Origin: the human T2T-CHM13v2.0 reference genome, Homo sapiens
Length of the DNA: 64,000 nucleotides
Reading direction: 5' to 3' (one strand)
Assembly (NCBI RefSeq): GCF_009914755.1
Contig: NC_060944.1
The translations under genes and the position numbers were made by a program. Below, piece after piece: positions 19,539 through 44,200 of the stretch. The notes under the pieces are model-generated. The model was not told where the DNA came from and ran no database searches. It was given only the letters and a program-made list of their open reading frames with translations. Each line of letters begins with the position of its first letter. Position 1 is the first letter of the stretch.

Positions 19539-19641
19539 GCACCTGCTCTGAACATGGGGATGTTTTTGTGGACTTTCCTCCTCCCTTGGTACCTGCTTAG
19601 CATAAGCCATGCTCAGTTGGGAGGTTCCAGGTCCCAAACAG
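19539..19641 (+). pseudogene. BPIF-like gene: signal-peptide exon (ATG 19554)
   Basis: tgtctccgcag|GCACCTGCTCTGAACATGG...CAAACAG|gtaagc; MGMFLWTFLLPWYLLSISHA/QLGGSRSQT; good Kozak context (aacATGG); ends in phase 1; ATG 15 nt into the exon, the same offset as BPIFA2 exon 2. Confidence 0.8.
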
Positions 19642-20831: not shown

Positions 20832-23641
20832 GTAGTAGAAATGGAGGTCTCCTGGGCAGCAGTGGTCTCTTGGGTACAGGACTTCTCAAGAATGGCCAGG
20901 TGCTCGGCAATGGTGGTGTTCTTGGCACAGGCCTTCTCAGTGGGAATAACCATCAGGCTGGGGCCAACAGTGGTTCCCCAACTACAAGAGTTGCTGCTCA
21001 CCTCTCTGAGCCAAACCACCTTGAGAATGACCAGGAATACATTTATCTGAGTTCCCCTCATGCCGAAGATGCCACTGAGTACAGCATCAAGCCTGGGAAA
21101 TCCAGTATGTTCCAGATGCCCACTCTGCTGCCCACACCCCCAGTGAGAATGGCTGCTTCTGCCCCTACTCCATCTGTGAGAATCCATGTGACCAATCAAG
21201 ACACTATGGGTAAACTTGGTCAGAGTGAGATGGGCGGTCCAGGCTCTACTGACAAAAGTGCTGTGATCAGTCAAGGATCCTTAGGTCACAAAGGAATGAC
21301 TACCCCTGGACAATTAAGTCAGAAGGTTATAAAGAGCCTTGGCTACTCTGACCACAAGTGGATGACCCAATCTGGCCATACAGGTGTGGGTGATATGAGC
21401 TTCTCAGGCAGTGGTCAACCTTCAGATGCTTCTTCAGGAAATGCTGTTGTGTCTGGGGTGGCTTCACCTGGCAGTTACGGTCAGTATGGGGCTGAGTCAT
21501 CTGATGGTTTGGGTCAATCTAGGGCAGGACTAATAACTGATCATCCTGGGACTGGGAAAAATGATGATTTTGGTCAGTCTGAGGCAGGGTTAATGAGTTA
21601 TCAGACTGGTGGTAGGTCATCTGGTTACGGTCAAACTGGGGATAGGTCATATGAGTATGGTCAGCAAGGAAACAAGTCATTTGGAGGGTATGGTCAGTCT
21701 GGGGTGGAGTCAATAAACAGCCTGAGCCTGGGTCATCTGGTGGCTTGGGTCAATCTGGAGCAGAGCCAATGAATGGTAAGTAAGGGGCTGGATCATTTAG
21801 GGGTTTGGGTCAATCTGGGGTAGGTTCAATGAATTCTCAGACCGGCAATAGGTTTCCTAGTGGTTATGGTCAAACTGAGGCTGGGCAATCTGGTGGCTAC
21901 GATCAGTTTGGGACAGGGTCATTTGGAAGGTATGGTCAGTCTGAGGCAGGGTCAATAAATGTTCAATCTGGGTCTAGACCATCTAATGGTATGGGTCAAC
22001 TTGGAGCAGAGTCAATGAACAGTCAGCCTGGGGCTAAACCATCTGGTAGCCATGGTCAGTTTGGGACAGGGTCATTAGGAGCGTATAGTCAGTCTGGGTC
22101 TGGATCATCTGGTTCTTTGGGTCGATCTGGAGCAGGGTGAGTGAATGATCCAACTGGATATAGGTTATCTAGTGCTTATGGTCAAACTGGGGCAGGGTCA
22201 CTAAATGGTCAGTCTGGGGTTGGGTTATCTGGTAGTCTTGGTCAATCTGGGGCAGGGTCAATGAGTGGTCAGACTGGGGATAGGTTATCTAGTGATAATG
22301 GTCAAACTGGGGCTGGATTATCTGGTTGTCTTGGTCAGTCTGGGACAGGGTCAATGAGTGGTCAGATTGGAGACAGGTCATCTAGTGGTTATGGTCAAAC
22401 TGGGCCAGGGCCACTAAATGATCAGTCTGGGGCTGGGTTATCTGGTGGTCTTGGTCAGTCTGGGGCAGGGTCAATGAGTGGTCAGACTGGGGATAGGTCA
22501 TCTAGTGGTTATGGACATCTTGGGACAAAGACATCTGTAAGCTATGGTCAGTCTGGGGCAAGGTTAATGAATGTTCATCCTGGAGATGGGACAACTGGTA
22601 GTATTGATCAATCTGGGGTAGGGTCAATGAATGGTCAGCCTGGGCCAGGAACATATGCTGGTGACAGTCAGTTTGCACTAGGAGCATCTGGAGGATATGG
22701 CCAACCTAGGTATGGGTCACCTAGTCATTTTAGTCAATCTGAGACTGTATCATTGAATGGTCAGCCCAGAGTTAGGTCATCTGGTGTGCTGGGTCAGTCT
22801 AGGGTTGAATCAATGAATGGTCAGCTTGGGGTGGGACTGTCTGATGGCTCTGTTCAACCTGGGGCAAGATCATCAGGAGGAAATGTTCAACTTGGAGAAG
22901 GGACATCTGATCGTGATATGCATTCTGGGGCTGGATCATCTATAAATTCTGGTCAGTTTGGGGCTGGGATATCTGTTGGCTATGGTCAGTCTGGAGCTAA
23001 GTCACATGACAGTCATGGTCAGTCTGAAGCTCGGTCAGTCTAGAGGTTATGGTCAATTTGGGGCTGGAGTATCTTTTAGCTGTGGCCACTCAGGAGCTAG
23101 GCCACCTAATGATTATGACAAGTCTGGGGCTGGGTTCTACTTAGGTCACGGCCAGCCTGGGCGTGGCACCCCTGGCCCCTCTGGTCCACCTGGGGAAACA
23201 CCATCTGGAGATCTTGGCCACATGGGATCCCCAGTGGATGATAAGGCTCCCCAACACAGGAGTCCAGTCAATGGCAACACACTGCCTCCCCCGGTTCATG
23301 ATGGTCAAGGAGGGGGGTATAGGAGCAGGAGCTGGAAACACACTCAGTCAGCAATTGCCAACAACTGCCCTCAACAAAGACCTCCTGGCTCAGGAAGGGC
23401 TGCTTGGAGCCATCATTCTCAACAACCAGAATCTGGTTAGGGAGAGAGAGATGCTACTTAAGATCCTCCTGGGCAGCAGGACCTTACCTACTGGAAAAGA
23501 TCATCTGCTGGAGGCAGCAGGGTCTCTGGCTCTGGAAGGACTGCTCTGCAAGGGTTCTCTGGGGGGCCTCTGTGGCCACGGGAGTCTTGTTGGCATCAAC
23601 AATGTTCTGAAGAGCACTTCTTTCGGGAAACTCAACAGCTG
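20832..23641 (+). pseudogene. BPIF-like gene: giant 2810-nt exon with GLLG repeats and G/S/Q-rich (GQSG/GQTG) tandem repeats; disabled
   Basis: ctgtcccaacag|GT acceptor is in phase with the signal exon; ORFs 20870-21772, 21805-22140, 22141-23043, 22958-23440 and 23163-23645 tile one repetitive protein; ends AGCTG|gtaagt in phase 2. Confidence 0.8.
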
Positions 23642-24234
23642 GTAAGTTTAAGTCCTTCATCAATAAAACAGTTTCCCAATGCACTGATCAACAAGGGTTC
23701 TAGGTGCTCACTATATGTTAAGTGTTGGAGTCTGACTCACCTAATTGGAAGGCAGACAGTAAGAAGGCAGCCTCAGACGCCGCCTCCTCCTGCAAACTCT
23801 CAGCCCACTGCCCAGCATCCCATCATTATGGCTTCACCCCTTGGATTTATGAAGGTTTGTCTAAGCCTCCACTAAATTACAAATAGCATTGAAAAGGGGT
23901 ACAGCAGAAGCTCTTCCCAGCTAGTACTTTAGTTATTATTTAATACCCCAGTGGTTAAAAACAGCATCTTTGTATGCTAACACTGTAATTTCCAACTGAT
24001 GCTTTGAATTTGACATCTTAATTTTCCTTTAACATCTTAATTAACTACAAAAGTGTTAGTTATCAGCTAATGCTTTTCTTGTCTAGGATTTGGAAATGGG
24101 ATTTAGAATGGAAATCTAGGTCAAGGATACGAAGGCCCAGGATAGAAGAAAAGCCATGTTGAAGTTTGAGTAATAAGTCGAGAAGACTGGGAAGTTCTGC
24201 TTTTCCACTTCACCTTGCTCTTCCCATTCTTCAG

Positions 24235-24342
24235 GCTCAAAATCATCAACTTTGATATCATCCAGGTGGCGTGGAAGAAGGTCTATCCTTTATCCAACCT
24301 CCAACTAGAATTTCAGACCAGGTTGACTATCAAACTCCCAGG
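24235..24342 (+). pseudogene. BPIF-like gene: BPI exon homologous to BPIFA2 exon 4 (108 nt, phase 2-2)
   Basis: ttcttcag|GCTCAAAATCATC...CCCAGG|gtgagt; same length and phase as BPIFA2 exon 4, starts LKI, ends G. Confidence 0.85.
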
Positions 24343-28384: not shown

Positions 28385-29005
28385 TGCCTTAGCCCACGGG
28401 AGCTCTGCCAGGCCACCATCCATGTTCACTTAAAGCCCAAGGGCGCCTCAGTCAGCTTGTGGTGAATGCTGCCCATGCCTGGGACTCATCCTTCAGGGCA
28501 GTGGCCTCCCGTCTGGCCCAGTGCAGGTCCACAAATGTCTAAGAGCCCAGGTCTGGATTTGGGGACCCCAAGAGCCTACGTGGTACTCTACCCCTCTGTA
28601 GCCAGGCTGGTACCTAAGGTGCAAGATGGAGTTCCCTTTATGTTTCCCTCTTCTTTTTTCAAGCAGAAAGAGTCTTTCACCATTGCCACCATAGCTGAGA
28701 GTGTACTGGGTCTCACCTGAAGCCAACACATCTCAGAGTCTCACCCAAGGCTCTGACATAGCACCTGGATATCACTGCTGGTTATTCAGGGCCTAAGGGC
28801 TGTTTATTCAGCAGGTGATGGATCCTCCCAGGACTGGCTCCTTCCCTTCAAAGTAGTAAGTTCCCTTCTGGCCCAAGGTGTGTCTAGAAACATGGTCCAG
28901 GAGCTAGGGCCTGAAACGCCAGCCTCACGACTCTGCCTGGTGCCCTATCCTATTGTGGCTGAGCTGGTATCCAAGATGCAAGACAAAGTCTTCTTTACTT
29001 TTCAG
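28385..29005 (-). mobile_element. L1M 5' region fragment, probably the same element as 24415-28160
   Basis: 'gttcacttaaagcccaagggc...ttcccttctggcccaaggtgtgtctagaaa...gctggtatccaagatgcaagacaaagtc' resembles old L1 5' sequences. Confidence 0.6.
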
Positions 29006-29224
29006 AAGGCAGTTTTTTAACAACTGACAAAATGGCCTTTGGTTATTCTTAGCATTTGCTGACAATTCTTGGCAATATCTGCCTAAACAGCTTCTTAGAG
29101 ATGGCTGTTAACAGGAAGTTAGGTGTGAGATTAATTTTTTTCTTTTTCTGCTATTTCTTTATGTCTTATTGTAACAAACTTGGGGAGAAAAATAAAATGC
29201 GGCAGAAAAAAAAAATCTCTAATC

Positions 29225-31482: not shown

Positions 31483-31623
31483 GTTGCTTGGCTTCCTCAG
31501 TGGCTCCACAGTGGACGTGAACATCATGGCTACCTTTGTGCTCTCCCAGACCAAGCTGGGTCAAATCTCTCTTGACTTGCAGAACTGCCAGCCAGTCTTC
31601 ACTAGGATCCACATGCGAGCAAG
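31483..31623 (+). pseudogene. BPIF-like gene: BPI exon with first conserved Cys (141 nt, phase 2-2)
   Basis: gtgcacag|GTTGCTT...GCAAG|gtaggt; LLGFLSGSTVDVNIMA...QNCQPV. Confidence 0.85.
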
Positions 31624-32240: not shown

Positions 32241-33372
32241 AACTGAAGTATAAATAGAGCAAATGATGGACTATAGTAGACTTTAGTAGACTCCCCTGAA
32301 AACTTCAGTAGACTACCCTGAAAAGACTTTAGTAGACTACCCTGAAAACCTAAGCTTGGCTCACGAGATGAGGTCTAAAAATACATGCTTACTTAATTTA
32401 AGAGCCATGAGCTCAGGGTTAACCAAGTTCTATAGCACTATATTTCAAACAGATCATTCTCTAAAAAAGCATCCAGAGGCTGGGCTGTGTACCCAATCAC
32501 CATGATGATCTCTAAGGTCATTATTTCATGGTTGAGAAGGATGCTGTAAGCCTCAGGGAGGTGCTATAAATCAGGAGTGCTACAGTTCAATTTCATCATG
32601 GGTTTAACAAGGTAGGCAGGCTAACCTGAGAGTTCAACCACATGTTCTCTGAGATCCTTTCTAACTCCCAGATTCTGAATTCAATGCCTTAGAACATGGG
32701 TCACATGCTCAAATGCCTATTAGGGGTAGGAAAGTGGCATAAATTAGTAAGCGGGGTCCAGTTTAAGGAAATACAACATTCAAGTTCAATTTCAATTTTT
32801 GGGATGCAATAGAGAGTGGTGGGCACTGTGGCGAATTGGACAGCACATGTCTCATCTGAAGTGGGCAGCCTCTCCTTGGCTCCAGTTGACTATGGCCATA
32901 TGGGAAGATGGGCCCAGTCTTGCCAGTTTTCTGTATTTTGAAGAAACTGGAACGTAAATTTTGAAACTTCACTGTAAAAATTTAAAAGACTATTTTTGCA
33001 AAAGAAAACACACCTGTGGGCCTCGTGTGGCCTGCAGCCTGCCATTCTACAGTCTCTATTTTAGAACATGATTTCTAAGGAGAAATGCCCTCTAAGTGCC
33101 TTAGCTCAAGTCACAAAGAATGTAAAACACACCCCTTGTTTAAGAGAAGGCAGGTACCCTGTGGTAATGGGTTGAATGCACTCCAGCCAATTTCTTTTCT
33201 TTCACTCATTTAGTCTTCACAACAACCCTATTTTACATTTTATAGATAAGAGGCACAGAGAGGTTATATAAATTGGACAAGGTCATATAGCCAGGAAATA
33301 GTGATGCTGGGATTCAAGCAATCTGTGTTTTTAACTATTCTGGTAGTTTGAGTTAATATATGCCATGAATTG

Positions 33373-33784: not shown

Positions 33785-33848
33785 CCTGCTCTCTGCAGTG
33801 ATGGAGACCATGTTGAAATGGATCCTGGATACCTCCCTACCCAACATG
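33785..33848 (+). pseudogene. BPIF-like gene: 64-nt helical exon (phase 2-0)
   Basis: ctccccag|CCTGCTC...AACATG|gtaagt; LLSAVMETMLKWILDTSLPNM. Confidence 0.8.
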
Positions 33849-36154: not shown

Positions 36155-36215
36155 CTGTGCCCAGTGGTCCAGTTCTGGTTCTACATTATCTATCAACAGT
36201 TGAACGTTCTGAAAA
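36155..36215 (+). pseudogene. BPIF-like gene: 61-nt 'LCP' exon (phase 0-1)
   Basis: tatttcag|CTGTGCCCA...CTGAAAA|gtgagt; LCPVVQFWFYIIYQQLNVLK, paralogous to the BPIFA2 ICPLIRIF exon. Confidence 0.85.
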
Positions 36216-37739: not shown

Positions 37740-37831
37740 ATGTCCACTTACTCAGATTATTTAGGGACCACCTCTCACCTCTCTCCCAAATACCCCTGTT
37801 GTCTCAGCAGTATCACTGCCTGGAGTTTCAG
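37740..37831 (+). pseudogene. BPIF-like gene: 92-nt linker-type exon (phase 1-0)
   Basis: Long pyrimidine tract, ccatcag|ATGTCC...TTTCAG|gtagga; ...LSQIPLLSQQYHCLEFQ resembles the BPIFB inter-domain linker. Confidence 0.7.
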
Positions 37832-39025: not shown

Positions 39026-39068
39026 GACAAATACTTCCCAGGCTCTTTCATTAACTGGCTGCTTGAAA
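39026..39068 (+). pseudogene. BPIF-like gene: 43-nt exon (phase 0-1)
   Basis: ttttttccccag|GACAAA...GAAA|gtaagt; DKYFPGSFINWLLE; in phase with the preceding exon. Confidence 0.6.
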
Positions 39069-39820: not shown

Positions 39821-40935
39821 TCTATTGTGAGAAGCTTTCCAGAACTGATTTCTGAGTCTGGAGGAATTTTTAAAAAATCACTGTGCTTTCATTACATTTC
39901 CCAAATCTCCTATGCTTACTGCTGAGGCAAGAGCGGAGGGAGGTAGGCAAAGAAGGAGAGTTGTCCTGGACCAAACTTCTGGACTAACTGCCGTTATAGG
40001 GTGCCTTGTGCCACTTCTCAGTTTCTCACCGAGGCTGGGCACCAGGCAGGAGGCAGGAGAAAAGATGGGACACTCCTCTCCCCCAAGCAGGCGGGGAAGC
40101 CTATTGTTCCCCTGGGGAGACAGGGAAGCTTTTAAGCCCTCTTGCTGTTTCTCTGGGACTTCTCCAACATTATGGTGAAAGCCAGAAAAGGTGAGCAGAA
40201 ACAGCCCTAAGCCAGGCATCCTGAGACCTAGGTTTTAAGACCCAGTTCAGACACTAACTCTCTGGGAGAACTTATGCCAGCCCCACCCTCTCTCTGGGCC
40301 TCTCTCCTCTCATCTGTAAAGTGTGCCGAGTCTCCAAAGGCCTTTCTTTCAATAAGAATGTTGGGAAGGTGGAAAGCAGGGCAAAACCTTGGCCGCAACA
40401 AGTCTTTCTCATGGTGGCGTCTTCTAATGTCTTCTGTGCTGTCGGTTGCAGTGACCCCTCAGTCTTCCTATTTCTAGGATGAGCATGGGACCCCGCCAAG
40501 ACTATGGTAAGGATGTTCAAACGCTGGAGCATCACTGTGGGACTCCCCTCTAAGTGGCTGTGACCTTGATCTACCCACCAATGATTTCCCGCAGCCAAAC
40601 CACAAATAGTTCCTTCATTAGAGCTTATGTTTGGATATGCCCAAAGCTGATAAGCTGGGAAATTTCCCAAGGGAAGGTAATTCAGCATGGAGCTGATGGA
40701 GGTAGAAGAGCCTCTAAGAAGCAGACTAAAGGAATGGTGCCTGACAGGGGAAGGGAAGTGAATGCCCCTTCCACTTCAGACAGATGGTCGGATTTATAGC
40801 TTAGGATTTGAGTATTCTTGAGGACCATCTGAAGCTGATGAGATGTTCCATCCAGCAGGTCAATGGCCTTGCAGTAAGATGTATGAAGCCAGGTTACAAG
40901 CCTGACTTTAAGTCTGTTAGAACTAAAGGAAGTAG

Positions 40936-41240: not shown

Positions 41241-44200
41241 GACCTGAAGGAAATTGGTGCTAAATGTAAAGTTACCTGGAACCCTTGGACTGTCTGCATT
41301 TCCAATTAACCACATCTCTGCACTCTGCTTTCCTCTCCTGCATAAGCAAGGTGCTCCCAAGCCACTTTCTCAATGAGTAAGGTTCACTTTAGGATCTGCC
41401 AAGGGAAATAAAGTAAAGAATGCCAAGATTATATACATTTAGAATTCCAGAAGGTCAGAATCTTGGCCTTAGAGATCCTGGGAACTCCAAGACCTTGGCA
41501 ATGGGTGGGAATGAGCAGAGGTGCTGGACCTGCTGGGTCCACAGGATTGAAGCCCTGCATCCTTTAATTGCATGAAACTCTCATGATGCAGTAGTGTGTT
41601 GGGAACTGGGTGGCCCCTGTCATGGCTTTTTGGTGTGGCAGTGAAAGGGACAGGCTTTAGGGTCAGGTAGACCTAAGTTCAAATTCCACCCTTCCAATGA
41701 CTCGGAATCTCAGGTTCCTCTTCCACAAAATGAGAGTGAGAATGGCACCTATTTTATAGGAAAATTGTGAGAAAATGCATGAAGAAAGCCTATGCTCAGA
41801 GCCTGGGTGACAGCGTGAGATGCTGTCTCAAAAACAGAAAAGAAAAAGAAAAAGAATGAAAGGAAATGAGCGCTAAATGTAAAGTTACCTGGAACCATTG
41901 CATTTCCAGTTAACCACATCTCTGCACTCTACCTTTCCTCCAGAGAACCAGAGGGTGGTAAAGCAGCTCTACCTCAAACACCCCAATCCCTGTGGTACTA
42001 ATGGGGGAAACAGACCAGAAGGGCATGGAAGACTCAGCGAAGACACTGTAGGGTGCCCCCTGCCTGAGGCTCCGGTCACCTCTCCCCTCCTGCAGCTCCT
42101 GCCTGCTGTCAAGAGGACCTGGGTGTGAAGCCCAGCTCTGCATCCTTCCAGCTGTGCAGAAGTGGGCCAGGCACCTCACCTCACTGGGCCTCAGTTTCCT
42201 TGACTGTTAAACAAATATGACCACTGGCAGATTGTCTAAACACCACCAGGCAGAGGGGACAGGCAGCTTGAGCTAAGGTGTGGAGTGGGGAACCGCAAGG
42301 GGCTGTGAGAACCCACAATCACACTCTCTGCCTCTCCCTGTTCCCCGTAGACAAGCACAGTGACAGAAGCTGGACACTGCCTGTCCTTCCACGTCTCTCC
42401 CGCTGCTGGCCACACACAGGGAGCAGCAGGTATGGCCTGGGCACCGGCAGGGCTCCCAGGCGGAGGGATTGGGGTGAGAGCAGGCACAGTTCTCAGATTT
42501 TGCCACAAGGTAGAGTTGTGACCCTGCTACTCCATGTTTCTCATACCTGTTAGAATTTAAGGATATTTGCATAATGCAGCATTTTATTTTTATTTTTATT
42601 TTTTATGCCAGGCACTGTGCTGGGCATTTGGCTTTCAGGATCGCATGTGATTTTCATAGCCACCTCTCAAGGTCAGCAGTATCATTATCTCTATTTTAGA
42701 GATGAGGAGACTGAGGTTCAAAGTGGTGATGGGACTGCATGGATGGACTGGGGAGTCTGACTGGGGAGTCAGAATTCGGCTCAAATCCCAGCTCTTCAGC
42801 CTATCAGGACACATAACCTCTCGTGCCTCAGGCTCCAAAGGGGAAAAATGGGGCCAATGATAGCAATAATATTTTGAATAGACCTTAGCTCTTTGTGGAT
42901 TGTTTATCCTATGCCCAGCCATGGATCATTTCATTCCGCCCTTTACCCCCCTTAAGAGGCAGCTGTTGATACATATTCATTCTGCAGATGAGGAAACTGA
43001 GGCCCAGTGAGGTTAGCTGCTGCCTGGCCCACTTCTACACAGCTGGAAGGAGGCAGAGCTGGGCTTCACACCTAGATCCTCTGGCAGCGAGCAGGAGCTG
43101 CAGGAGGTGGTGGGTGTCTGGGGCCTGGAGCAGGGGGGACCCTACTGTGTCTTGGCTGAGTCTCCCATGCCCTCTGGCCTCAGTTTCACCACTGATACCA
43201 CAGGGATTGGGATGTTTGAAGTGGAGTGCCTTCACGGTCCCCTGGTTCTCTGGAGAAAAATGCAGTGCAACAGCCAAGAAGCCATATCCAGGAGGCTCCT
43301 GGAGTTGCGGGGGTGGACCCTGCAGCAAGAAGAGGGCCCTCAGCTCCTGGGTGTCTCCCCATGCCCCAGCCAAAGCCACCCAGAGCTCAGTCCACACTGG
43401 GCCTCCCTAGTGTCACTTGGGTGCATGGCTGATGACACATATGACCATGTTTGTTTTCTCAACCTTTTCGTCAGGACCGCCTTTGTGAACAACCTGAGGG
43501 CCCTGCAGGCTGCGGGGAGAGTCACGTGGAGCCTGAGGGTGGCACAAGGAAGGCAGAGAAGAAGCAAGTGGAGCTGGCCTTCAGGGTTCCTGAGTCTCCA
43601 CAGGCCCAGGGCACCTGTTCTTGGTCCAGCAATAAATGCTCAGATGGATGGCGAGGACTTGGGTCACCACAGGATCCACTATGGGAGGCTCCTGGGAAAT
43701 ATCACCATCACGACATTCATTCTTTCAGGCAGTAAGCATAGCCAGGTCCCATTTGATATGAATCTGACCTGCAAATCTGCAACAGTGTCCTGCAACATAT
43801 TAAGTTTTACATGGTGACCAGAAAGTTAAATAAAACATCCCCTCCCCCCACCTTTTCCATTGTTAAGAACACACACCTAACTTGCTCAAGTCCCTCCCTT
43901 CTCAGGAAGAATAAAGGTCCCTTCTGTAATTCCACACTCCCTCCACCAACCTCCTTCCCTCTCTCGTCCCTTCGCAGCCAAAGTTCCTTAGAGCTGTGCT
44001 TCTCCACCTTGAACACACAAATGAGCCACCTGGGCTCTTGTTAAGATGCAGGTTCTAGAGCAGTTGGTCTGAACTAGGGAGAGGCCAGCGGTCCATGGGC
44101 CACCCTTTGAGCAGCATGCTTATTTTGGATACATCCACCCCACCACCCATCTTGTTTCCACTGGTTGCCCCACCAAACTCGGCCTTACCAGGTCCTCCGT

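What the first reader, a model, noticed from the sequence alone, without database searches (positions are those of the whole stretch)
21715..23320. All five disabling lesions cluster in the giant exon, while the BPI exons and splice sites are intact
Seen, judged against the repeat consensus: ~4-nt deletion at ~21719 (aacag[tcag]cctg), TAA at 21781-21783, TGA at 22138-22140 (consensus TCA), +1 insertion at ~23038 (tcaGtctaga), and probably +1 in the G-run at 23312-23317. Repaired length 2812 nt gives exactly the required phase 1-to-2. The signal exon and six downstream exons have no stops and perfect GT-AG. Inference: either a relatively recent primate gene loss (the big exon is simply the largest target), or residual function through an isoform avoiding the damage. 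As spliced now, it would encode a ~342-aa secreted fragment ending at TGA 21770-21772, likely NMD-targeted.
Basis: partly seen in the sequence, partly recalled or inferred. Interest (0 to 1): 0.7.

Follow-up and report, generated by a model that had tools for sequence, protein, structure and literature searches.

The report
Unannotated broken human BPIFA6 gene
Under a predicted non-coding RNA on human chromosome 20 lies a broken copy of BPIFA6, a gene whose protein is found in mouse tears; five mutations wreck its huge repeat exon while the other coding exons are still open, most likely because the gene was lost recently in ape ancestry.

Summary
All five lesions are real and at the stated places; horse, dog and unnamed mammalian proteins read through the three frameshifts. 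The locus is the human orthologue of rodent Bpifa6 (between BPIFB4 and BPIFA2), annotated only as lncRNA LOC105372714. The clustering is not significant: the exon is 82% of the coding length (P=0.37; range test P=0.15). The BPI part shows no faster evolution on the human branch, so loss is probably recent (roughly great-ape to catarrhine age). No rescue isoform with credible splice sites exists today, and RefSeq models lack the signal exon. Extras: exon sizes and sequence make BPIFA6 a truncated BPIFB3/B4-type gene, not a mouse-lineage SPLUNC, with chicken 'Protein 10' as candidate orthologue. Rodents lack the Gly/Ser/Gln repeat, and 5 of 6 unnamed mammalian fragments carry frameshifts of their own in it. 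Both stop 'lesions' sit inside the only two strong 5' splice sites of the exon, which hints that the repeat may have been partly spliced out before the final loss. Verdict: a new unitary pseudogene of a known family; moderate interest.

The parts
19539..19641 (+). Signal-peptide exon, ATG at 19554, 88 coding nt, phase-1 donor
   Evidence: aligns to N-termini of sloth P0005 and rodent proteins
20832..23641 (+). Giant exon 2 (2810 nt): unique 5' part, Gly/Ser/Gln repeat of 27/33-nt units, conserved Leu-rich 3' end that starts the BPI domain
20832..21270 (+). 5' part of exon 2 shared with rodent Bpifa6, open
   Evidence: rodent N-terminal pieces score above 500 of 500 shuffles
21719..21722 (+). 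Site of 4-nt deletion (frameshift); leads to TGA 21770-72
   Evidence: dog P0003 and P0026 read through
21773..21783 (+). Strong internal 5' splice site (exon would end at 21775, phase 1 in the ancestral frame) overlapping TAA 21781-83
   Evidence: score 11.4, top of the exon
22134..22142 (+). Strong internal 5' splice site (exon would end at 22136, phase 2) containing TGA 22138-40
   Evidence: score 10.9, next-best internal donor 7.4
23033..23040 (+). +1 insertion
   Evidence: 34-nt unit; horse P0001 and P0004
23074..23094 (+). Best candidate internal 3' splice site in the 3' half (exon would start at 23094, phase 1); RefSeq lncRNA models start at 23080
   Evidence: score 7.0-7.3; use untested
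23312..23317 (+). Six-G run with +1 frameshift, the only lesion 3' of 23094
   Evidence: horse P0001, P0004
23318..23641 (+). Open 3' end of exon 2, 75-87% identical to horse, dog, bear, sloth and P0004 proteins
24235..24342 (+). Exon 3 (108 nt; one codon longer than in all 14 homologues aligned)
31483..31623 (+). Exon 4 (141 nt), first conserved Cys
33785..33848 (+). Exon 5 (64 nt)
36155..36215 (+). Exon 6 (61 nt), second conserved Cys, 35 residues after the first
37740..37831 (+). Exon 7 (92 nt), open, in no listed RefSeq model
39026..39068 (+). Exon 8 (43 nt)
40452..40506 (+). Exon 9 (55 nt) with natural stop TAG 40475-77
   Evidence: rodent P0008 ends at the same place

Best explanation
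This is the human BPIFA6 gene, broken by three frameshifts and two stops in its repeat exon and likely inactivated recently, in ape or catarrhine ancestry, so that it is now likely a transcribed unitary pseudogene. Shown: orthology to rodent Bpifa6, the five lesions, open small exons, no speed-up of the BPI part on the human branch. Inferred: the ancestral boreoeutherian gene encoded a secreted protein of ~1140 aa with a signal peptide, a long disordered Gly/Ser/Gln repeat and one BPI/TULIP lipid-binding domain, acting in mucosal secretions such as tears and nasal fluid as mouse BPIFA6 does. After the first hit, lesions fell where the target is largest and most slippage-prone. A full-length mRNA would stop at codon 343, 1869 nt before the next junction, and be an NMD target. 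The RNAs that RefSeq predicts start inside exon 2, lack the signal exon and skip BPI exons.
For: Orthology: the 3' end of exon 2 hits proteins named Bpifa6 (P0007, P0011, P0023) and horse, dog, bear and sloth proteins. All small exons map in order. Fused hamster, Scotinomys and sloth models place the homologue after BPIFB4 and/or before BPIFA2. Rodent P0008 has 1 match in the human genome, this one (6 candidates scored), and the repeat is single-copy. Lesions are not shared with horse, dog, P0004 or P0026. Clustering P=0.37 / 0.15. Human branch 0.106 vs horse 0.17, dog 0.18, rodents 0.45-0.7; relative-rate counts human vs horse 10:18, vs dog 14:17; human breaks 2 of 50 invariant columns, others 0-6. 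Chance of the intact parts staying lesion-free under neutrality is <0.005 at d=0.03. Five lesions give d~0.012-0.016 (95% 0.004-0.038) (indel share recalled). The repeat was once coding: 48 of 49 units keep lengths divisible by 3, with 2 stops against ~12 expected. No credible rescue splice. RefSeq-type isoforms give 159-268 aa signal-less pieces.
Against: No primate orthologue DNA or protein was available, so the date is indirect. No full-length repeat-bearing protein was found in any species (crowded searches, weak evidence). 5 of 6 unnamed mammalian fragments have frame switches of their own in the repeat, so the giant exon may be dead or spliced out in many lineages. Horse, dog and bear models lack a signal peptide and may themselves be decaying, which weakens the rate comparison. 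Both stops lie in the exon's two strong donors, which random decay gives ~0.3% of the time per stop. A 312-aa signal-less frame from ATG 23238 is open if spliced ideally. The stop deficit falls to P=0.07 if shared changes halve the count.
Confidence: 0.72

Rival explanations
1. Stepwise loss of the repeat by splicing. Primate ancestors gained new 5' splice sites inside exon 2 (21775, 22136) and spliced out much of the repeat, for example 21775 or the signal exon joined to 23094 (both phase 1). TAA, TGA and the +1 at 23038 then lay in an intron, and only the 4-nt deletion and the G-run slip killed the gene, very recently or not in all people.
For: The two stops sit in the only two internal donors scoring like real ones (11.4, 10.9; next 7.4); simulated stops do so in 0.2-0.4% of cases. 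23094 is the best acceptor of the 3' half and matches phase. Rodents make a repeat-free 344-395-aa protein; signal exon plus 23094 onward spans about 389 codons with only the G-run slip inside (one search printed 388, one codon short). RefSeq models begin 14 nt upstream of this acceptor. The low human branch length fits.
Against: Noticed after the fact. The splice matrix came from only 20 donors and 19-20 acceptors in the window, and includes these same two 9-mers from this gene's real donors. The repeat unit is one change from a donor. A phase match has a 1-in-3 chance. No junction reads were seen. Today these junctions give 342, 144 or 50 aa, none intact.
Confidence: 0.15
2. Residual function today. 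A transcript starting near 23080 makes a signal-less BPI-domain protein of up to 312 aa from ATG 23238, and this keeps the small exons under selection.
For: The frame is open from 23145 to the natural stop. LOC105372714 once had a protein-coding RefSeq model, XM_017028195.1, listed as mRNA (PMC7766365, table passage). The small exons are intact with low divergence.
Against: A disulfide-bonded secreted fold without a signal peptide. No listed RefSeq model contains the full 141-nt or the 92-nt exon; the representative model gives 159 aa. The gene is now typed lncRNA. Human changes at two otherwise invariant positions and a one-codon insertion in exon 3. Intact exons are expected after a recent loss.
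Confidence: 0.07
3. Old loss, shared across placentals or primates, with the small exons intact by luck.
For: Other mammals' repeat fragments are also frameshifted; no full-length protein in the databases; no bovine homologue of mouse SPLUNC6 was found in PMC1839098.
Against: The lesions differ between lineages. P(no lesion in the intact parts) is <=4e-6 at d=0.07. The human protein branch is a third of the neutral expectation. Mouse BPIFA6 protein is detected in tears (PMC5502090).
Confidence: 0.04

Closest known systems
[quoted passage not shown]
   Same: Same position between BPIFB4 and BPIFA2; same signal exon, exon-2 ends and small exons; 55-62% identity over the core; detected in mouse tears, female-biased (PMC5502090 passages) and nasal proteome (PMC5807349 passage).
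   Different: Rodent proteins are 344-395 aa in most models and lack the ~690-codon repeat segment; the human copy keeps the repeat but is broken. PMC7078197 says Bpifa6 could not be mapped to a human orthologue.
BPIFB3 / BPIFB4 (LPLUNC3/4)
   Same: Closest paralogues: E 1.8e-17 and 1.4e-12 vs 0.043 for BPIFA2. Human BPIFB3 has exons of 105, 141 and 61 nt and BPIFB4 an enlarged ~508-nt exon in the place of the giant exon; chicken LPLUNC3 runs 105/141/64/61/92...43 (PMC3253384 Table 3).
   Different: Lacks the exons of most of the C-terminal BPI domain (jumps from 92 to 43 nt); one domain only; exon 2 expanded by a tandem repeat.
Chicken 'Protein 10' (ENSGALG00000006693)
   Same: Directly after LPLUNC4, with exons 189/329/61/92/43/124, the same 61-92-43 jump (PMC3253384 Tables 1 and 3, section 3.2).
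Human BPIF-cluster pseudogenes: BPIFA4P (BASE/latherin) and the BC018465 relic (BPIFB5P, name recalled)
   Same: Human losses in the same cluster, intact in other mammals (PMC1839098 passage; PMC2864566 supplement lists the BC018465 relic).
   Different: Those are catalogued. This locus is not among the 5 chr20 rows of the PMC2864566 supplement and is annotated only as a predicted lncRNA.
Hornerin / filaggrin-2 Gly-Ser-Gln repeats (resemblance recalled)
   Same: Low-complexity GQ/GS tandem units encoded in one large exon.
   Different: No S100 domain; no hit to them in the repeat search or at DNA level in the human genome; likely convergent.

Membership tests
BPIFA6 orthologue group | Position between BPIFB4 and BPIFA2, same strand | tested here: met
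   Hub annotation; fused models P0024, P0025, P0005 show the same order in hamster, Scotinomys and sloth
BPIFA6 orthologue group | Best mutual sequence match with named Bpifa6 proteins | tested here: met
   P0007, P0011, P0023 named Bpifa6; only human match of P0008; E 2.6e-80 vs 1.8e-17 for the next paralogue
BPIFA6 orthologue group | Co-linear exons from signal peptide to C-terminus | tested here: met
BPI/LBP/PLUNC (TULIP) fold | BPI N-terminal domain fold | tested here: met
   Tested on rodent orthologue P0008, not on the human sequence: model mean pLDDT 49 (domain 60-85); best matches BPI 1bp1 Z 9.6, rmsd 3.2, 144 aligned, and mouse BPIFA1 Z 9.0
BPI/LBP/PLUNC (TULIP) fold | Pfam PF01273 above gathering score | tested here: inconclusive
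   P0008 27 bits, P0017 26.2, horse 18.1, cut-off 28.8; 0 of 7 single human pieces hit
BPI/LBP/PLUNC (TULIP) fold | Conserved Cys pair 35-46 residues apart | tested here: met
   35 apart in the human exons; range from PMC1839098 passage
BPI/LBP/PLUNC (TULIP) fold | Lipid or LPS binding, secretion | not testable with these tools
   Hydrophobic N-terminus seen by eye; no predictor or assay
Unitary pseudogene | Disabling mutations with exon-intron structure kept | tested here: met
Unitary pseudogene | No intact copy elsewhere in the genome | tested here: met
   (lower-bound searches)
Unitary pseudogene | Functional orthologue in another species | tested here: met
   Open rodent proteins; mouse protein in tears (PMC5502090 passages)
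Unitary pseudogene | Lesions fixed in the population and no protein made | not testable with these tools
   One haplotype only; no variant, RNA or proteome data
BPIFA2-type (SPLUNC) single-domain genes by descent | Exon pattern 157/145/108/153/82/64 and closest similarity to BPIFA2 | tested here: not met
   Pattern is 108/141/64/61/92/43; E 0.043 to BPIFA2. BPIFA1/A3 were compared only exon-wise, weakly (best hit BPIFB4, E 0.005). It works like a single-domain SPLUNC but descends from a BPIFB3/B4-type gene.

The most novel reading that the evidence does not exclude
BPIFA6 is an old BPIFB3/B4-derived gene, shared with birds, that carried a ~700-residue Gly/Ser/Gln repeat in early placentals and shed it repeatedly. 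Apes were removing it through newly born splice sites, so three of the five 'lesions' are intronic. A rodent-sized secreted isoform (signal exon to 23094) is blocked by a single homopolymer slip, so humans lost a tear and nasal defence protein very recently, possibly with open alleles still segregating.
Probability: 0.12. Interest if true: 0.72.

Novelty: new member of a known kind. Interest (0 to 1): 0.42.

Why it matters
It adds an apparently uncatalogued human gene loss to the BPIF innate-defence cluster and re-identifies a predicted lncRNA as a gene relic. It also contradicts the printed view that Bpifa6 (equated with SPLUNC6 from recall) is a mouse-lineage duplicate without a human counterpart. 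It points to a second origin of single-domain BPIF proteins, by truncation of a BPIFB3/B4-type gene, and shows a long repeat exon being lost in several mammals. If the splice-site reading holds, it would be a case of a coding repeat turning into an intron, and a polymorphic-pseudogene candidate that a pangenome look-up can test at once.

Tried and rejected
Searches for full-length repeat-bearing orthologues gave none: 0 of 5977 candidates; 2 of 2657, both fused rodent models. Both searches are crowded and do not show absence. No primate protein appeared. Pfam on 7 single human pieces: 0 hits. PDB by sequence with P0008: 0 hits. Atlas with horse P0001: top hit a BPIB4-fragment cluster at 0.92, a lead only. 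Exon 28667-29178 of the lncRNA has stops in all three frames and is not a BPI exon. Skipping exon 2 entirely is out of frame (53 aa). Compensation of -4 by +1 fails because TGA 21770-72 precedes the 21775 donor. dN/dS between the 213-nt repeat copies is 1.25, and 0.49-1.87 over 4 comparisons, so residue identity in the repeat says nothing on constraint. P0030 looks like an unrelated repeat and was left out of the frame analysis. Literature: 'BPIFA6' 7 papers, 'LOC105372714' 1, 'BPIFA6P' 0, BPIFB4+BPIFA2+pseudogene+primates+gene loss (4 of 5 terms) 0. No mention in held supplements of PMC10195156 and PMC3580494, in the chr20 rows of PMC2864566, or in the main text of PMC2134963 and PMC10195156. 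The Bingle 2004 and 2011 family papers could not be read and may already note this relic; Ensembl, GENCODE, HGNC and TOGA were not checked; supplements of other catalogues were not seen.

Full report
Observation. The + strand carries a signal exon (ATG 19554, donor 19641), a 2810-nt exon 20832-23641 and seven small exons of 108, 141, 64, 61, 92, 43 and 55 nt, all with AG/GT ends (acceptor corrected to 20832). The small exons translate without a stop up to TAG 40475-77. In exon 2 the reading frame moves three times and meets TAA 21781-83 and TGA 22138-40. The repeat consists of 27- and 33-nt units: 48 of 49 units between 21479 and 23010 are 27, 30 or 33 nt, one is 56 nt (the 4-nt deletion), and the unit at 23017 is 34 nt. 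Spliced as is, the ORF is 342 aa and ends at TGA 21770-72, 1869 nt before the next junction.

Independent check of the frameshifts. A frameshift-aware alignment of 9 homologous proteins to exon 2 shows that horse P0001 and unnamed P0004 both need +1 at ~23032-38 and at 23312, and that P0026 needs a shift at ~21729. The dog model aligns to the residue before the deletion and runs on in frame. The frameshifts are therefore derived on the human lineage and not shared by all placentals. The two stops could not be checked this way, because repeat units do not align one to one.

What the gene is. The 3' end of exon 2 found 23 proteins among 6825 candidates, including three named Bpifa6 and uncharacterised horse, dog, bear and sloth proteins at 75-87% identity. 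Their later parts map exon by exon onto the window. Fused models of hamster, Scotinomys and sloth place the homologue after BPIFB4 and/or before BPIFA2, as here. Rodent P0008 has one match in the human genome, this locus; the repeat DNA is single-copy. A model of P0008 (19 sequences; mean pLDDT 49, domain 60-85) matches BPI (Z 9.6, rmsd 3.2, 144 residues) and BPIFA1. Pfam PF01273 scores just under its cut-off, and the Cys pair is 35 residues apart. The human protein itself was not folded. RefSeq lists only lncRNA LOC105372714, starting at 23080; a table in PMC7766365 shows it once had an mRNA model, XM_017028195.1 (passage).

Is the clustering special? Exon 2 is 82% of 3432 coding nt: P(5 of 5)=0.37. 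The chance that five points span no more than 1599 nt is 0.15. For the segment missing in rodent proteins P=0.08. Target size explains it.

When was it lost? Over the ~220-residue core the human branch is 0.106 changes/site (40 bootstraps 0.056-0.161), horse 0.17, dog 0.18, rodents 0.45-0.7. Neutral drift over 0.16 nt/site (recalled depth of the boreoeutherian split) would give 0.32. Human-unique versus horse-unique changes are 10:18; human breaks 2 of 50 invariant columns, other species 0-6. Intact parts would stay lesion-free with P<0.005 at d=0.03. Five lesions give d~0.012-0.016, 95% range 0.004-0.038 (stop share 0.036 computed, indel share recalled). By recalled divergences this is great-ape depth, catarrhine at most. 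Caveat: no primate sequence was on hand, and the horse, dog and bear models lack signal peptides and may be decaying too.

Was the repeat ever coding? Unit lengths divisible by three, and 2 stops against ~12 expected from 326 mismatches to the unit majority (P=0.0007; 0.07 if shared changes halve the count), say yes. Residues themselves look unconstrained (dN/dS 0.49-1.87 in 4 comparisons). Against a living long form: no protein of 518-2000 aa matched the 5' part, and only two fused rodent models exceeded 703 aa; both searches are weak. Of 6 unnamed mammal-like fragments covering the repeat (P0004, P0026-P0029, P0031), 5 switch frame at places of their own (~22668; ~22006-92 and ~23160; ~22815 and ~23020; ~22815; ~22556). 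These may be real independent losses, or assembly or model errors. Rodent proteins keep both ends of exon 2 and lack the repeat; P0017 and P0019 come from contigs of 1439 and 1537 bp, so the short form is probably a real mRNA.

Is there a rescue isoform? Using a splice matrix from 20 donors and 20 acceptors of the window, I listed every internal site pair giving an open frame from ATG 19554 to the natural stop. There are 14 direct acceptors and 850 pairs, but the best acceptors score 1.8-3.6 (4.5 in one pair with a weak donor), against 4.4-12.9 for 19 of 20 real ones; most of them cut into the conserved segment. Skipping exon 2 is out of frame. A signal-less 312-aa frame from ATG 23238 is open, but no listed RefSeq model has the full 141-nt or the 92-nt exon, and the representative one gives 159 aa.

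An unexplained point. The only two strong donors inside exon 2, at 21775 (11.4) and 22136 (10.9; next 7.4), contain the two stops. Simulated stops land in such donors 0.2-0.4% of the time. The 21775 donor is phase 1 in the ancestral frame, as are the signal-exon donor and the best 3' acceptor, 23094. An intron there would hold three of the five lesions, and only the G-run slip lies beyond 23094. This was seen after the fact, the matrix is small and contains the same 9-mers, and today these junctions give 342, 144 or 50 aa. I keep it as the main rival.

Descent. The human BPI part scores E 1.8e-17 to BPIFB4, 1.4e-12 to BPIFB3 and 0.043 to BPIFA2. An exon-wise profile search over BPIFB3, B4, A1, A2 and part of A3 was weak (best BPIFB4, E 0.005). 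Exon sizes match BPIFB3 (105, 141, 61 nt seen; 105/141/64/61/92...43 for chicken LPLUNC3 in PMC3253384 Table 3), not BPIFA2, and BPIFB4 has an enlarged exon in the same place. Chicken 'Protein 10' follows LPLUNC4 and shows the same 61-92-43 jump (PMC3253384: passages, tables, sections 3.2 and 4 read); orthology is by position and exon size only.

Literature seen. PMC5502090 (passages): BPIFA6 in mouse tears, female-biased. PMC5807349 (passage): nasal proteome. PMC7078197 (passage): Bpifa6 not mappable to a human gene. PMC1839098 (passages, Discussion): SPLUNC6 a mouse-lineage duplicate with no bovine homologue; its identity with Bpifa6 is recalled. PMC2864566 (supplement rows): 5 chr20 entries, none this locus. 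PMC10195156 (text and supplement search), PMC3580494 (supplement search), PMC2134963 (text search): no mention. PMC3505551: reference list only. Searches for BPIFA6P and for a primate loss between BPIFB4 and BPIFA2 gave 0 papers. The Bingle 2004 and 2011 family papers were not readable, so prior notice cannot be excluded.

Verdict. A real, apparently uncatalogued human unitary pseudogene of BPIFA6, most likely lost recently (0.72). The lesion clustering itself is ordinary. The descent of the gene and the stop-donor coincidence are the parts worth following. New member of a known kind; interest 0.42.

Noticed in passing
window 21773-21783 and 22134-22142: Both nonsense lesions lie inside the only two consensus-strength 5' splice sites of the 2.8-kb exon.
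   Followed up: partly
window 23270-23297: The sloth model P0005 enters exon 2 at the position of human 23295, where human has a pyrimidine tract but GG instead of AG; possibly a lost alternative acceptor.
   Followed up: partly
PMC3253384 Table 3, chicken chr20: 'Protein 10' after LPLUNC4 shares the 61-92-43 exon jump; candidate bird orthologue of BPIFA6.
   Followed up: partly
P0004, P0026-P0029: Unnamed mammal-like ORFs carry their own frame switches in the repeat, suggesting repeated independent loss; P0004 also changes conserved residues at the exon's 3' end.
   Followed up: partly
P0017: A BPIFA6-like mammalian protein is labelled as a Salmonella hypothetical protein; likely host contamination.
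   Followed up: no
window 24235-24342 and 36155-36215: Human exon 3 has one extra codon (108 vs 105 nt implied in homologues), and two otherwise invariant residues are changed (one in exon 3, one in exon 6).
   Followed up: partly
window 22087-22512: A 213-nt higher-order duplication inside the repeat, 85% identical, dN/dS 1.25.
   Followed up: yes
window 28667-29178, 24087-24234, 43475-43852: lncRNA exons with no BPI homology (cryptic or untranslated); 43475-43852 may be the gene's old 3' untranslated exon.
   Followed up: partly
window 32269-32349: A short 22-24-nt tandem repeat (about 3 copies) in the intron after the 141-nt exon.
   Followed up: no
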